Source: Gemmatimonadota bacterium
GTDB taxonomy: Bacteria; Gemmatimonadota; Gemmatimonadetes; Gemmatimonadales; GWC2-71-9
Direction: 5' to 3'
Length of the DNA: 64,000 bases
NCBI GenBank assembly: GCA_046726475.1
Contig: JBKPAO010000036.1
Location: 674-64,673 of the forward strand
Shown here: one piece after another, positions 26,790 through 31,158 of the stretch
How positions within the stretch are numbered: position 1 is the first letter of the stretch
Layout of the letters: each line of letters opens with the position of its first letter
Position numbers and translations under genes: made by a program
Notes under the pieces: generated by a model
Told to the model about the DNA's origin: nothing
Seen by the model: the letters and a program-made list of their open reading frames with translations, nothing else
Databases searched by the model: none

Positions 26790-29453
26790 ATGACCGCTGC
26801 ATCAACCCCGTCACCGATGACCGCTCACGGTTCGCGCCGTTGGACCGAAGGCGTTCATCGCCACGTCCTCCCCAACGGCTTGACGCTGCTGATACAGGTG
26901 GATTATTCCGCCCCAGTGGTCGCTCTGGTCACTCACGTGAAGGCCGGCTTCTTCGATGAGCCGGACAAATGGACCGGCATCTCTCATGTGCTGGAGCACA
27001 TGTTTTTCAAGGGCACCGTTCGACGGGGTGTCGGCTCGATCGCCCGGGAGACCAAGGGAGTTGGTGGGTATCTGAATGCCGGAACCGGCTACGATCACAC
27101 CAGTTACTTCACGGTGCTTCCTGCATCCAGTCTTCCCCAGGCACTGGACATCCAGTCCGATGCCCTGCGGAACTCGATCATCGACCAGGGCGAGCTCGCG
27201 CGGGAGCTCCAGGTCATCATCCAAGAGGCCAAGCGCAAGCGCGACACGCCGAGTGCAGTGGCCCAAGAGACACTGCACGAGGTGATGTTCGACCGCCACC
27301 GTATCCGGCGCTGGCGCATTGGCCACGAAGCGGATCTCGCCAAACTCACGCGGGAGGACGTCGTCTCGTACTATCGGTCCCGCTACGTGCCCGAACGGAC
27401 GGTAGTCGCGATTGTCGGTGCCATCGATCCTGCCGCTGCGCTGGACCTGGCAACAGCCCGCTATGGTGACTGGCCCAGGGCTCCCGGCGCCGTCGACCCG
27501 TCTCCGGAAGAACCGTTGCGACGAGAAGTTCGGGCCCGGACCCTCCGAGGTGATATCAGCCAGGCCGAACTGGTGCTGGGATGGAGGACGGTGCCCGCCC
27601 TGCATGATGATGCCCCGGCACTCGACATGGCTGCGGCGGTGCTCGCGGCTGGTCGGGGGAGCTTGTTGTACCAGGCATTGCGGGAGCCGGGGTTGGTAAC
27701 CTCGATCTCGGCGCACAACTATACCCCAACCGAGCTGGGGGTGTTCAGCGTGGGGGCGGACCTCGCTCCTGAGATGCTCGAACCGGCCGTGGAGAAGATC
27801 GCCGAGTCTGTGTCCCGGCTGAGCCTACTGGGGCCGAATGTCGAAGAGCTTCGTCGCGCCCGCACCCTCCTGGAGGCGCGCTGGGCCAGGCGACTCGAGA
27901 CCATGGAGGGCAAGGCTGCTGCCCTTGCCGCGGCCGAAGCCCTGGAACACGTATCGTTCCTGGACCGGGAATATGCTGCGCTTCAGGCAGTGGACGCGGA
28001 CGCGGTCCGAGAGGCCACCAGACGGTATCTCCAGCCGGACAGCATATCCGGGGTGGTGTATTTGCCTACCGGGGCCGGGCCCGAGCTGACACCCACCTTG
28101 CTGGAGCGGAGCTTCGCAGTCACCCCCCTCAACCCGGGTTCTCCTCTCCCGCTGCCGCGACGACCAGTGCCCCCGATTGTACAGGTACCTGCCTCCCGTG
28201 AAGCCGAGGTCGAGCATACCCGATTGAACGGCATCGACCTATTGGTTCGGCGCAAGACCGGGGTTCCCCTGGTCACGCTCGGACTGTACTCGCCGCGACT
28301 GGAGTTCGATCCCCCGGCGCAGGCCGGACTCGGCGCGCTGCTGGTCAGAGGGGCCGTGCGTGGAGCCGGCGAGATGGATGCCGGGGAGCTGGCATTTGCC
28401 TTCGAGCAACTAGGAGGGAGTTTGGCCCCCTCAGCCGCATCGGATTGGCTGGGATTCAGTACGACCGTGCTGTCCGAGCATCTCGCGGAGGCCGCTGTCC
28501 TTCTCGATCTCGTTTTCCGCACGCCGCGGCTGAACGACCGCGAGCTGGAGACGGAGCGGAGCCTGATGATGACAGAGGCTGAGCAGGTGTCCGATGACAT
28601 GTTCCGCTATCCGTTTCAGCTCGGTTTTGCTGAAGCGTTCGGCGATTCGGGCTATGGTTTGCCGGTGGGCGGCCTGCCCGAAACCTTGCCCGCGATATCG
28701 CCGACCGACGTCCGAGCCTGGCATAGCGGTGCCTTCCTCCGGAGCCGGCCGGTTGTAGTGGCAGTAGGCGACGTAGATCCCCGTCAAGCGAGCGCCACCT
28801 TGGCCGGAGTGTTTCGGGACTACCCGGCGCTCGCGGACGGTCGCAGGCCGGATCAGCAGATCCGCACCATCAGCGGGAGCAGCTCCAGCCGGATCGCTCA
28901 CCGGGAGAAGGCTCAGGCCGCCCTCGCAATGATCTTTCCCGGGCCCGCCAGGCGCGATCCCAACCGAGTTGCCGCCGAGGTCTGGGCCGCGGTCGCCAGC
29001 GGGCTGGGGGGCCGAATGTTCGAGGCGTTGCGCGACCGGCGCTCGCTGGCCTATACGGTGCTCGCCTCCAGCTGGCAGCGCGGCCGTGCCGGAGCGCTGG
29101 TCACCTACATCGCCACCTCACCCGAGCGCGAGGAAGAGGCGCGGGCAGCTATGCTGGAGCAACTCGATCTCTTCACCCGCGCGCCGGTCACCGAAGAGGA
29201 GCGGCTCCAGGCGATCAACTACCTCGCGGGCCAGGCCGAGCTCGCGCGCCAAAGTGCGGGCGCACTGTCCGCAGAGATCCTGGAGGCGTGGCTGATCGGG
29301 AACGGACTATCGGACCTTCAGGATCCTGCTGGCGCGTTTCGCGCCGTCACCGCGGAGGATGTTTTGCGGGTCGCACGGGAGAACCTGGACCCGTCGCGGA
29401 GGGCCGAGGGGATTGTGCGGGGGACTGGAATCAGGTCGCCAGCCGGCGGCTGA
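26790..29453 (+). CDS. M16 (pitrilysin/insulinase) family zinc peptidase, double-unit PqqL-like architecture
   Basis: 887 aa with the inverted zinc motif HVLEHMFFKGT in the first unit and a second inactive-type M16 pair in the C-terminal half. Confidence 0.9.
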   Translation: MTAASTPSPMTAHGSRRWTEGVHRHVLPNGLTLLIQVDYSAPVVALVTHVKAGFFDEPDKWTGISHVLEHMFFKGTVRRGVGSIARETKGVGGYLNAGTGYDHTSYFTVLPASSLPQALDIQSDALRNSIIDQGELARELQVIIQEAKRKRDTPSAVAQETLHEVMFDRHRIRRWRIGHEADLAKLTREDVVSYYRSRYVPERTVVAIVGAIDPAAALDLATARYGDWPRAPGAVDPSPEEPLRREVRARTLRGDISQAELVLGWRTVPALHDDAPALDMAAAVLAAGRGSLLYQALREPGLVTSISAHNYTPTELGVFSVGADLAPEMLEPAVEKIAESVSRLSLLGPNVEELRRARTLLEARWARRLETMEGKAAALAAAEALEHVSFLDREYAALQAVDADAVREATRRYLQPDSISGVVYLPTGAGPELTPTLLERSFAVTPLNPGSPLPLPRRPVPPIVQVPASREAEVEHTRLNGIDLLVRRKTGVPLVTLGLYSPRLEFDPPAQAGLGALLVRGAVRGAGEMDAGELAFAFEQLGGSLAPSAASDWLGFSTTVLSEHLAEAAVLLDLVFRTPRLNDRELETERSLMMTEAEQVSDDMFRYPFQLGFAEAFGDSGYGLPVGGLPETLPAISPTDVRAWHSGAFLRSRPVVVAVGDVDPRQASATLAGVFRDYPALADGRRPDQQIRTISGSSSSRIAHREKAQAALAMIFPGPARRDPNRVAAEVWAAVASGLGGRMFEALRDRRSLAYTVLASSWQRGRAGALVTYIATSPEREEEARAAMLEQLDLFTRAPVTEEERLQAINYLAGQAELARQSAGALSAEILEAWLIGNGLSDLQDPAGAFRAVTAEDVLRVARENLDPSRRAEGIVRGTGIRSPAGG

Positions 29454-29736
29454 TCACGTCAATGCCCTTTCCGACATCGGCTGGTGCTCGGGCTACGATG
29501 TCGACCAGGCAGATTCCCTCTGCCGGAGCGCAGTGCAGCACGATATGCCCTTCCAGGCAAAGCAGCGCCACTGCGATGTCCCCGGCTCCTTCCCTCGCGA
29601 CTGGTGGCCCCAGCCCCGGCATGCCGACTGCTCCCGCGGCAGCGACCACCAGGGCCGATAGCCCGTCGGTGTCCCGGAGCCGCTCCGGATTGAGATCGGT
29701 AAACTCGAGCAGGTAGTGGTTAAAGGTGGCGTTCAC
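29431..29736 (-). CDS. S-adenosylmethionine decarboxylase (SpeH/SpeD class 1)-like protein lacking the pyruvoyl-forming Ser
   Basis: Alignable by eye to class-1 AdoMetDC (HYLLEF...DGLSALVVAAAGAVG...VALLCLEGHIVLHCAPAEGICLVDIVA). It has EG where the self-cleaving ES site is expected and no TCG cysteine. GTG 29736 lies 7 nt after the upstream stop; the ORF-track start at 29805 overlaps that gene. Confidence 0.6.
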   Translation of the reverse strand: MNATFNHYLLEFTDLNPERLRDTDGLSALVVAAAGAVGMPGLGPPVAREGAGDIAVALLCLEGHIVLHCAPAEGICLVDIVARAPADVGKGIDVISRRLAT

Positions 29737-29743
29737 CAGACGC

Positions 29744-30517
29744 CTACACTCGAGCGGGGGAGTGCGCGACTGCTTCCCGGTATCCCTCCGGAATCCCAAC
29801 ATCAAAAAACGTGGCAGGATTCATCACACCGGCCAAAGCTTCCCGGGTGGCCAAACGCTGGAGGACCGGCACATCGTCCAGCTCCTTTCCCGGTTGGAGA
29901 TCCCGGCTTAGCTCGTCGAACTCTGCGAGGATGTCGCCCCCGAAGGCCATCCGGCCGATCGGCGTGACCGCGGCCTCGGCGCCGGCCGTGTCGAACCTTC
30001 CAGCACCCTTGTCGGCGACCGCGATGACTCGGAGGGATCCCGAGGCGTCCTGGCGAACGGTCGCCCTTCCGGTAGCCCCCTTGGTAGCGGCTTCCTTCTT
30101 CTCAATCGCGGTGAGTAGCACCGTCGCCAAACCGGTCGAGCGATAAGTCGCCAGTACTGCGGCAGAAGGATTGGGACCATGAAATAGATTATCGGGCAAA
30201 AGCGCTAGAAAGGGAGATCCGGCCAGTTGATCTCGCGCCCGCAGGAACGCGTCACCCAATCCCCTGGGATGGTCCTGAGGCACGAACTCGAGCTCGAGTG
30301 GTCCCGGATAGTTTCGGGCTACCGTTTCGAGCACAGGCTTGTGCGGATTGGTGATAATGATTGCCCGCAGCAATCCCGCTGCCGCCGCCTCATCCAGCGC
30401 CCAGTACAACACGGGCTTGAGTCCAACTGGGAGGACCTCCTTGGGAAGCCACCGGGTGATCGGATGCAGGCGGGTACCCAGCCCCCCGCACGGAATCACC
30501 GCCGTGTCGAGCGTCAT
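29744..30517 (-). CDS. sugar-phosphate nucleotidyltransferase (GalU/UTP-glucose-1-phosphate uridylyltransferase-like)
   Basis: 257 aa with the N-terminal AVIPCGGLGTRLHPITRWLPKEVLPV nucleotide-binding signature. Confidence 0.83.
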   Translation of the reverse strand: MTLDTAVIPCGGLGTRLHPITRWLPKEVLPVGLKPVLYWALDEAAAAGLLRAIIITNPHKPVLETVARNYPGPLELEFVPQDHPRGLGDAFLRARDQLAGSPFLALLPDNLFHGPNPSAAVLATYRSTGLATVLLTAIEKKEAATKGATGRATVRQDASGSLRVIAVADKGAGRFDTAGAEAAVTPIGRMAFGGDILAEFDELSRDLQPGKELDDVPVLQRLATREALAGVMNPATFFDVGIPEGYREAVAHSPARV

Positions 30518-30570: not shown

Positions 30571-31158
30571 TTGTACGCTCACGATTGCCGAGGGAGAAGC
30601 GTGACCGAAGCTAGTCCGGCACGGAGGGGGGAGCAAGGCCGCGTGCGGTGGACAGCGGCCGACCTGATCAGCCTTCTCCGCATTCCGCTCGCAGTCGCAT
30701 TCGTGCTGGTGTCTCACAATGGATGGCGGCTGGTGATCGTCGCGGCCGCGGCTCTCACCGATCTCCTCGATGGCCCGGTCGCACGCCGCTTCGGCAGCTC
30801 TCCTTTTGGGGCAGTTCTCGATCCCATTGCCGACAAGGTGTTCATGGCGGCTGCTGTGGGAGTGGTGGCATTCTCCGGCCGGCTGGAGGTATACGAGATC
30901 GTCGGAGTTCTGCTGCGCGACATCGTTGCAACCGTCGCCTTCGTCATCACTTTGGTGTCTCATCAGCCGAGGGCCATCCCGGCACGTTCCAGCGGCAAGG
31001 CAGTGACGGTGGCGCAGATCCTGACTCTCGTCGCGTTTCTCGTGAATTCTCCTTATCTGCGGCCGATCGCCTGGGCGACTACGGTGATTGCCATCATCGC
31101 CATTTGGGACTACTACCGCGTGGCGCCCCGGGCCCAGCGGCGGCTGGGGGATGGGTGA
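30571..31158 (+). CDS. CDP-alcohol phosphatidyltransferase family protein (PgsA-like)
   Basis: Contains the motif D-x2-DG-x2-AR-x8-G-x3-D-x3-D (LTDLLDGPVARRFGSSPFGAVLDPIADK). Polytopic. Start uncertain; GTG 30601 is an alternative. Confidence 0.85.
   Translation: MYAHDCRGRSVTEASPARRGEQGRVRWTAADLISLLRIPLAVAFVLVSHNGWRLVIVAAAALTDLLDGPVARRFGSSPFGAVLDPIADKVFMAAAVGVVAFSGRLEVYEIVGVLLRDIVATVAFVITLVSHQPRAIPARSSGKAVTVAQILTLVAFLVNSPYLRPIAWATTVIAIIAIWDYYRVAPRAQRRLGDG

What the first reader, a model, noticed from the sequence alone, without database searches (positions are those of the whole stretch)
29431..29736. AdoMetDC-fold protein that has lost the self-processing serine and the catalytic cysteine
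Seen: the protein aligns by eye with class-1 bacterial/archaeal SAM decarboxylase proenzymes (H-LL-EF start, V.LL.E.H..LH..P.EG...D). Where the family has ...ES|H (Ser becomes the pyruvoyl group) it has LEGH. Where the proton-donor Cys sits (TCG) it has ARA. It is translationally close (7 nt) behind a sugar nucleotidyltransferase gene. Established knowledge: pyruvoyl formation requires that Ser. Inference: this is a non-decarboxylating pseudoenzyme or ligand-binding paralog. It may sense or bind SAM or a nucleotide in the context of the neighbouring nucleotidyltransferase.
Basis: partly seen in the sequence, partly recalled or inferred. Interest (0 to 1): 0.55.

Follow-up and report, generated by a model that had tools for sequence, protein, structure and literature searches.

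The report
Serine-less AdoMet decarboxylase-fold protein, Gemmatimonadales
A small, well-conserved Gemmatimonadales protein keeps the shape of the polyamine enzyme S-adenosylmethionine decarboxylase but has lost the serine and cysteine that enzyme needs. It is almost certainly not a decarboxylase, databases mislabel it as one, and its real job is unknown.

Summary
Window 29431-29736 (-) encodes a 101-aa protein that matches Pfam AdoMet_dc (41.7 bits, cut-off 25). Its AlphaFold model superposes on T. maritima AdoMetDC (TM 0.91, rmsd 1.5 A).

A gapless profile alignment gives it the T. maritima numbering:
- lost: Ser63 to Gly63 and Cys83 to Arg83, as well as Ser55 to Ala and Glu72 to Ala
- kept: Glu11, His64 and His68

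The protein belongs to one well-separated clade (SH-aLRT 98) found only in Gemmatimonadales. The processing position is Gly, or Cys or Ala in some branches, and never Ser. The clade is under purifying selection (dN/dS about 0.1). It was found in 58 of 201 sampled genomes of the phylum. 55 of those 58 have no Ser-bearing paralog, so a prozyme-type role is unlikely.

That gene lies directly upstream in 66 of 80 close species. In the wider clade the usual upstream gene is a 152-aa cyclic-nucleotide-binding protein. The whole arrangement sits in a variable slot of a conserved syntenic block.

My reading is an orphan pseudoenzyme, probably a small dimeric binding module; its function is untested. 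NCBI annotates members as "S-adenosylmethionine decarboxylase". The scan's first readers had noted the same EGH variant in two other genomes.

The parts
29431..29736 (-). AdoMetDC-fold gene, 101 aa, GTG start. It has Gly63 at the self-processing position and Arg83 at the catalytic Cys position.
29548..29550 (-). Codon 63, GGG (Gly), in place of the Ser that becomes the pyruvoyl group. It is flanked by Glu62 (29551-29553) and His64 (29545-29547).
   Evidence: sequence; register
29485..29493 (-). Codons 82-84, Ala-Arg-Ala, in place of Thr-Cys-Gly. The proton-donor Cys is lost.
   Evidence: sequence; numbering
29533..29535 (-). Codon 68, CAC (His68). It is retained and, with His64, nearly invariant across the whole Ser-less clade.
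29737..29743 (-). 7-nt spacer between the nucleotidyltransferase stop (TAG) and the GTG start.
29744..30517 (-). GalU/RmlA-like sugar-1-phosphate nucleotidyltransferase, 257 aa. It is far below the equivalog cut-offs. It is the upstream neighbour mainly in this genus.
30571..31158 (+). CDP-alcohol phosphatidyltransferase, divergent. It forms one edge of the conserved syntenic slot.
26790..29453 (+). Double M16 peptidase, convergent. Its 3' end overlaps the AdoMetDC-like gene by 23 nt. It forms the other edge of the syntenic slot.

Best explanation
The gene encodes a folded, selectively maintained class-1b AdoMetDC-fold protein. It cannot make a pyruvoyl cofactor and so is not a SAM, arginine or ornithine decarboxylase.

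It belongs to a single Gemmatimonadales-restricted clade. That clade lost the processing Ser once, from a Ser-bearing SpeD-like ancestor. It has since been inherited vertically in one chromosomal slot, with many losses.

By inference only, it most likely works as a small homodimer that keeps the alpha-beta-beta-alpha sandwich. The retained cleft residues (Glu11, His64, His68) would then bind a small molecule or a partner protein. It acts without any active AdoMetDC partner. It is not obligatorily tied to the neighbouring nucleotidyltransferase.
For: Shown:
- Fold and family membership by sequence and model.
- Gapless register giving S55A, S63G, E72A and C83R, with E11, H64, H68, P71, G74 and D79 kept.
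- All 80 species-level loci of the close subclade read LC[LR][ED]GH.
- In the wider clade the site is G, C or A and never S.
- One long, supported branch (SH-aLRT 98, length 1.34) separates the 50 Ser-less rows from every Ser-bearing PF02675 protein of the phylum. Family f1 forms a clade (SH-aLRT 96) inside it.
- dN/dS is 0.08-0.13 against the closest relatives.
- The locus position is the same in both families.
- The own genome (94% complete) has only this PF02675 hit and no PF01536 hit.
- 55 of 58 clade-bearing genomes show no Ser-bearing paralog.
- No fusion to another recognised domain appears among 82 representatives searched without a length limit.

Inferred: homodimer formation and binding function, by analogy with class 1b structures and with other non-catalytic uses of the fold.
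Against: - No ligand, partner or phenotype is known.
- The binding idea rests on two conserved His and an acidic residue, which could be kept for structural reasons.
- Gene neighbours change between lineages (cNMP-binding protein, nucleotidyltransferase, DUF4760, a membrane protein), so context gives no consistent functional signal.
- Patchy presence (58 of 201 genomes) shows the gene is dispensable.
- Some family-f2 members have Cys at position 63 and Ser/Thr at 55. Self-processing cannot be excluded for those.
Confidence: 0.6

Rival explanations
1. The protein is a regulatory or ligand-sensing subunit for the adjacent sugar nucleotidyltransferase, binding SAM or a nucleotide.
For: - A 7-nt spacing suggests co-translation.
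- The pair is adjacent in 66 of 80 close species.
- It is adjacent in 11 of 15 genus genomes plus G190; in G042 the two genes are 1.1 kb apart.
Against: - Only 2 of the 33 Ser-less loci examined outside the genus have the transferase upstream.
- The transferase occurs without the protein in 3 genomes. In G118, G174 and G111 the full-length copy lies on another contig.
- The protein is older than the pairing, since it is present in family f2, whose loci lack the transferase.
- No fusion of the two was found.
Confidence: 0.12
2. It is a new enzyme on the old scaffold. Catalysis would use the retained His64 and His68, plus Cys60 and Cys76 in this subclade, without a pyruvoyl group.
For: - His64 and His68 are nearly invariant across the whole clade.
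- Cys60 and Cys76 are invariant in the window's subclade.
- Purifying selection is strong.
Against: - Cys60 and Cys76 are not conserved in other branches.
- There is no conserved metabolic gene context.
- The two His are also conserved in canonical enzymes, so they need no new explanation.
Confidence: 0.15
3. It is a prozyme-like dead paralog that activates an active AdoMetDC-family decarboxylase by heterodimerising with it.
For: - This is the one established role of a dead AdoMetDC paralog (trypanosomatid prozyme, PMC5201418).
- Three genomes do carry a Ser-bearing paralog as well: G031, G103 and G131.
Against: - The own genome and 55 of 58 clade-bearing genomes, mostly 94-100% complete, have no Ser-bearing PF02675 hit.
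- No PF01536 hit in the own genome, though that search rang in no control genome either, so it shows little.
Confidence: 0.04
4. It is a decaying relic or mis-called ORF with no function.
For: Patchy distribution with many losses. The window's subclade has lost the C-terminal strand that family f2 and canonical proteins keep.
Against: - dN/dS is about 0.1, and all 58 primary matches have intact frames.
- 24 columns are invariant among 23 sequences down to 59% identity.
- The model is very confident, pLDDT 96.5.
Confidence: 0.04

Closest known systems
Class 1b S-adenosylmethionine decarboxylase, SpeD/SpeH (T. maritima TM0655, PDB 1tlu/1vr7/1tmi; A. aeolicus 2iii; Pfam PF02675), including its arginine and ornithine decarboxylase offshoots (PMC10407285)
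   Same: - Same fold (TM 0.91), same length class and a gapless register over residues 8-82.
- Glu11, His64, His68, Pro71, Gly74 and Asp79 are kept.
   Different: - No Ser63, so no pyruvoyl group; also no Cys83, Ser55 or Glu72.
- The C-terminal strand is missing in this subclade.
- No canonical speE was found. The only spermine-synthase-domain hit in the genome lies inside a 964-aa protein.
- All characterised offshoots in PMC10407285 remain pyruvoyl enzymes.
Trypanosomatid AdoMetDC prozyme (catalytically dead class 2 paralog, PMC5201418)
   Same: A paralog of the AdoMetDC fold that has lost processing and catalysis yet is kept by selection.
   Different: - Prozyme works only as a heterodimer with an active AdoMetDC. 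Here no active partner is encoded in most genomes.
- This protein is class 1b size and bacterial.
Degraded SpeD-type domains inside fusion proteins: the C-terminal domain of the Victivallis vadensis SpeD fusion and the C-terminal half of eukaryotic class 2 AdoMetDC (PMC10407285)
   Same: A class-1b-like unit without a self-cleavage site.
   Different: Those are covalently fused to an active unit and complete its active site. The Gemmatimonadales protein is free-standing, and no fused form was found.
N-terminal domain of human spermine synthase (PDB 3c6k)
   Same: A non-catalytic use of an AdoMetDC-like fold. It is the next-best structural match after the true AdoMetDCs (TMq 0.56-0.60). From my own knowledge, not checked here, that domain serves dimerisation.
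   Different: A much weaker match, and that domain is fused to an aminopropyltransferase.

Membership tests
Pyruvoyl-dependent class 1b AdoMetDC/SpeD family (functional enzyme) | Sequence and fold of PF02675 | tested here: met
   41.7 bits against a cut-off of 25. Foldseek TMq 0.91 to 1tlu. However, the NCBIfam equivalog TIGR03330 gives only 26.4 bits against a cut-off of 75.65.
Pyruvoyl-dependent class 1b AdoMetDC/SpeD family (functional enzyme) | Ser at the Glu-Ser self-cleavage site (T. maritima Ser63), which becomes the pyruvoyl group | tested here: not met
   Gly63. Gly in all 80 close species. There is no Ser near the hairpin.
Pyruvoyl-dependent class 1b AdoMetDC/SpeD family (functional enzyme) | Active-site Cys (T. 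maritima Cys83, in TCG). [quoted passage not shown] | tested here: not met
   Ala82-Arg83-Ala84.
Pyruvoyl-dependent class 1b AdoMetDC/SpeD family (functional enzyme) | His68, and Ser55 and Glu72 of the neighbouring protomer. Their roles are recalled from Toms et al. 2004, which I could not read here. | tested here: inconclusive
   His68 is kept, while Ser55 is Ala and Glu72 is Ala. The papers that assign the residue roles were not held.
Pyruvoyl-dependent class 1b AdoMetDC/SpeD family (functional enzyme) | Autocatalytic cleavage into beta and alpha chains, and decarboxylase activity | not testable with these tools
   Needs recombinant protein.
Prozyme-type dead paralog | An active AdoMetDC-family paralog in the same genome to pair with | tested here: not met
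   Single PF02675 hit in the own genome. 55 of 58 clade-bearing genomes have no Ser-bearing hit.
   Adjacent mainly within one genus and its close species. The transferase orthologue is present in 18 of 201 genomes against 58 of 201 for the protein.

The most novel reading that the evidence does not exclude
A free-standing bacterial AdoMetDC-fold protein has been repurposed, without any active partner, into something new. One candidate is the effector or adaptor of the stand-alone cyclic-nucleotide-binding protein, which is translationally coupled to it in many lineages of both Gemmatimonadales families. The other is a cofactor-less enzyme built on His64 and His68. The Cys63 branch of family f2 would be a living intermediate between the pyruvoyl enzyme and the pseudoenzyme.
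Probability: 0.2. Interest if true: 0.6.

Novelty: new variant of a known kind. Interest (0 to 1): 0.42.

Why it matters
- Annotation: NCBI and JGI label these proteins "S-adenosylmethionine decarboxylase" or "...-like enzyme". Polyamine pathway reconstructions for Gemmatimonadales would therefore wrongly infer dcSAM synthesis.
- Pseudoenzyme evolution: the dead AdoMetDC-type units I found in the papers read here all work beside an active unit (PMC5201418, PMC10407285). This clade has been kept under selection with no active unit present, so it must do something else.
- The Gly, Cys and Ala series at the processing site offers a natural set for studying how a self-processing enzyme is retired. 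Ser is TCN in Ser-bearing relatives, and TGY (Cys) or GCN (Ala) are single-step bridges to GGN (Gly).

The finding is modest in scope: one phylum, a dispensable gene and no phenotype.

Tried and rejected
Tools and papers that were unavailable:
I reconstructed context with the genome search and the fetch from genomes instead.
- The T. maritima complex paper and the Bale & Ealick review were not held. The roles I give for Ser55, His68, Glu72 and Cys83 therefore rest on my own knowledge plus PDB titles and chain boundaries.

Searches that gave nothing useful:
- The search for related loci with the broad alignment A2 failed for lack of a conserved stretch. A1 worked but reaches only the close subclade.
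- PADLOC gave no defence-system match for the protein or the transferase.
- NCBIfam and Pfam gave nothing for the family-f2 downstream membrane protein. The ESM Atlas gave only a weak lead (0.85-0.87) to GH113-type glycoside hydrolases.
- Literature searches found no description of a Ser-less free-standing bacterial SpeD homologue.

Ideas considered and rejected:
- An alternative register or start that restores a Ser. No Ser lies near the hairpin.
- Cys60 as a shifted nucleophile. It is not conserved outside the subclade.
- A family-wide Cys2His2 metal site, for the same reason.
Full report
WHAT IS THERE

The minus-strand ORF 29431..29736 encodes 101 aa from a GTG start. A longer TTG start at 29805 would run 62 nt into the upstream gene. 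Homologues start with Met exactly at the GTG position, so the 101-aa form is the gene. The upstream gene (29744-30517, -) ends 7 nt before it. The convergent M16 peptidase gene (26790-29453, +) overlaps its 3' end by 23 nt.

IS IT AN AdoMetDC-FOLD PROTEIN?

Yes.
- Pfam AdoMet_dc scores 41.7 bits (cut-off 25, E 1.7e-10).
- The NCBIfam equivalog model for the enzyme is far below its cut-off (26.4 against 75.65).
- An AlphaFold2 model built on a 66-sequence family alignment has mean pLDDT 96.5 and pTM 0.88.
- Its best PDB matches are T. maritima AdoMetDC (1tlu, 1tmi, 1vr7; TMq 0.91, rmsd 1.5 A) and A. aeolicus 2iii. The next match is the non-catalytic N-terminal domain of human spermine synthase.

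ARE THE CATALYTIC RESIDUES GONE?

Yes.
- A canonical SpeD from another Gemmatimonadota genome aligns without gaps to T. maritima 1tlu over residues 1-103. In the processed T. maritima structure 3iwb the two chains match residues 1-62 and 64-125 of that SpeD, which places the break at 62/63. Entry 1tmi is titled the S63A non-processing mutant.
- hhalign of the family profile against that canonical SpeD aligns residues 8-82 to 8-82 without a gap. The window protein therefore shares the T. maritima numbering.
- Lost: Ser55 to Ala, Ser63 to Gly (GGG, 29548-29550), Glu72 to Ala, and Thr82-Cys83-Gly84 to Ala-Arg-Ala.
- Kept: Glu11, Glu62, His64, His68, Pro71, Gly74 and Asp79.
- phmmer against 2iii gives the same Ser-to-Gly pairing.
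- The only two serines (27 and 96) lie in predicted helices, so no alternative register supplies a nucleophile.

THE FAMILY

The organism is a Gemmatimonadales MAG, going by the source names.
- A search of 5.8 billion clustered proteins found 210 relatives.
- An exhaustive HMMER pass over 1.84 billion representatives found only 82 at E <= 1e-3. ESH-type sequences appear only at the weak end of that list.
- In a sample of 201 Gemmatimonadota genomes the family profile found a match in 58. They lie in two families of one order, plus one Ser-bearing outlier.
- All 80 species-level loci of the close subclade read LC[LR][ED]GH.
- Across the wider clade the site is Gly, Cys (a weakly supported group in family f2, motif D[AG]CH) or Ala, and never Ser.
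- A maximum-likelihood tree puts all 50 Ser-less rows on one long branch (SH-aLRT 98, length 1.34). That branch is separate from every Ser-bearing PF02675 protein of the phylum: canonical ESH..TCG, an ESH..FCC group and an ETSS..FSC group. Family f1 forms a clade (SH-aLRT 96) inside it, which matches the taxonomy. The alignment is short and the method was 'quick', so only the starred branches should be trusted.
- dN/dS against the window gene is 0.08-0.13 for the closest relatives, with dS about 1 and so near saturation.
- 24 columns are invariant among 23 sequences down to 59% identity.
- Across 66 sequences the nearly invariant positions are L20, D22, A33, A34, A36, G38, P45, H64 and H68.
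- The window's subclade ends right after the last helix. Family f2 and some f1 genera keep the canonical C-terminal strand ending in RG.

IS THERE AN ACTIVE PARTNER?

Mostly not.
- The own genome (94% complete) has only this PF02675 match.
- It has no PF01536 match either, but that search rang in no control genome, so it is weak evidence.
- Of the 58 clade-bearing genomes, only G031, G103 and G131 also carry a Ser-bearing homologue.
- The only spermine-synthase-domain hit in the own genome lies inside a 964-aa protein, not a canonical SpeE.

GENE CONTEXT

The gene always sits in one slot of a conserved block:
CDP-alcohol phosphatidyltransferase (divergent) | [cNMP-binding 152 aa] [nucleotidyltransferase] [AdoMetDC-like] [DUF4760 in some f1 genera, or a ~500-590 aa membrane protein in f2] | M16 peptidase and a TPR protein (convergent).

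One search covers 49 genomes. One, G049, carries the Ser-bearing outlier and has no recognised neighbour. In the other 48 the gene directly upstream is:
- the cNMP-binding protein in 22 (19 in f1 outside the genus, 3 in f2), often with spacings of only a few to about 50 nt
- the nucleotidyltransferase in 13 (11 in the window's genus, where the G118 hit is only a 31-aa remnant; in 2 other genera, G042 and G190, the cNMP gene lies further upstream; in G042 the transferase is 1.1 kb away)
- the divergent CDP-alcohol transferase in 9
- nothing recognised in 4

Further points on context:
- Genomes without the AdoMetDC-like gene keep the cNMP gene in the same place (L091, L092).
- The own genome lacks that cNMP orthologue.
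- Orthologues of the nucleotidyltransferase occur in 18 of 201 genomes. Three of those lack the AdoMetDC-like gene, and in three others (G118, G174, G111) the full-length copy lies on a different contig.
- No fusion with another recognised domain was seen.
- Context therefore shows a variable slot rather than a fixed operon.

INTERPRETATION

Shown:
- The protein has the fold and lacks the residues needed for pyruvoyl formation and decarboxylation.
- It is conserved under purifying selection.
- It forms one clade.
- It usually has no active paralog.

Inferred:
- It works as a small dimeric binding module, for a ligand or a partner protein, using what is left of the inter-subunit cleft.

Rivals, with my estimates:
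- a new cofactor-less enzyme (0.15)
- an accessory subunit of the nucleotidyltransferase (0.12)
- a prozyme-like activator (0.04)
- a relic with no function (0.04)

The Cys63 members of family f2 often keep Ser or Thr at position 55. In principle they might still self-process. That S-to-C mutants of pyruvoyl enzymes process slowly is my recollection only, not something I checked. Codon usage is compatible with Ser (TCN) to Cys (TGY) or Ala (GCN) to Gly (GGN) as single-nucleotide steps. This is a suggestion, not a demonstrated order of events.

COMPARISON WITH WHAT IS KNOWN

Known non-catalytic AdoMetDC-type units are:
- the trypanosomatid prozyme (PMC5201418)
- the degraded C-terminal domain of the Victivallis vadensis SpeD fusion and the C-terminal half of class 2 enzymes (PMC10407285)
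- the spermine synthase N-terminal domain (3c6k)

The first two work beside an active AdoMetDC unit (paired with it or fused to it), and the third is fused to an aminopropyltransferase. PMC10407285, the broad survey of bacterial SpeD homologues, has no hit for 'Gemmatimon', 'glycine' or 'pseudoenzyme', and its only dead domains are parts of fusion proteins. No curated NCBIfam model covers the clade. Public records call members "S-adenosylmethionine decarboxylase". I rate it a new variant of a known kind.

EARLIER SCAN NOTES

- First readers flagged the same EGH variant in two other genomes, one of them also behind a GalU-like gene.
- A followed-up finding and one more first-reader note describe Gly-for-Ser AdoMetDC-fold paralogs in unrelated genomes.
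- I did not test those notes. They suggest that loss of the Ser has happened more than once in bacteria.

CAVEATS

- Genomes G057, G157 and G181 are unpublished. They are counted in the tallies, and G057 also. G057 (L007) also contributes one row to the tree, the dN/dS table and the neighbour tally. No conclusion depends on them.
- All genomes but a few are MAGs.
- The residue-role statements for T. maritima are from memory where marked.

Noticed in passing
L056:6338-6796 (-) and equivalents in L033, L036, L040, L043-L047, L053, L054, L057-L064; also L091 and L092: A stand-alone 152-aa cyclic-nucleotide-binding protein (PF00027, 82.7 bits) is about 77-78% identical across genera. It sits divergent to the CDP-alcohol phosphatidyltransferase in many Gemmatimonadales. 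It is often translationally coupled to the AdoMetDC-like gene but is also present without it. It has no output domain.
   Followed up: partly
L033:2650-4236 (+), L039:4371-5879 (+) and equivalents in L032, L034, L036, L037, L040, L041: In family f2 the AdoMetDC-like gene is followed on the same strand by a ~500-590 aa membrane protein found only in Gemmatimonadota. It has no Pfam or NCBIfam match. The ESM Atlas gives a weak lead (0.85-0.87) to GH113-type glycoside hydrolases.
   Followed up: partly
own genome, contig C55 (L068:4-2895, +): A 964-aa protein carries a central spermine/spermidine synthase domain (58 bits). It is the only PF01564 hit in a genome that has no Ser-bearing AdoMetDC.
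   Followed up: partly
L077-L082 and L090 (G092, G067, G136, G103, G106, G131, G158); L083-L084 (G002, G005): Two further PF02675 subgroups occur in the phylum: an ESH..FCC type in Gemmatimonadaceae-like genomes and an ETSS..FSC type in family f10. Both keep a Ser at the site. Their substrates are unknown and could be Arg or Orn decarboxylase-type offshoots.
   Followed up: no
L014:1343-1435 (G118): A 31-aa remnant of the nucleotidyltransferase N-terminus lies just upstream of the AdoMetDC-like gene. A full-length copy, 57% identical, lies on another contig. The same split is seen in G174.
   Followed up: no
L154 (CAWBAJ010000017.1): One of the 80 species-level loci comes from a MAG labelled Actinomycetota, while all the others are Gemmatimonadales. 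This is likely a binning or labelling error rather than gene transfer.
   Followed up: no
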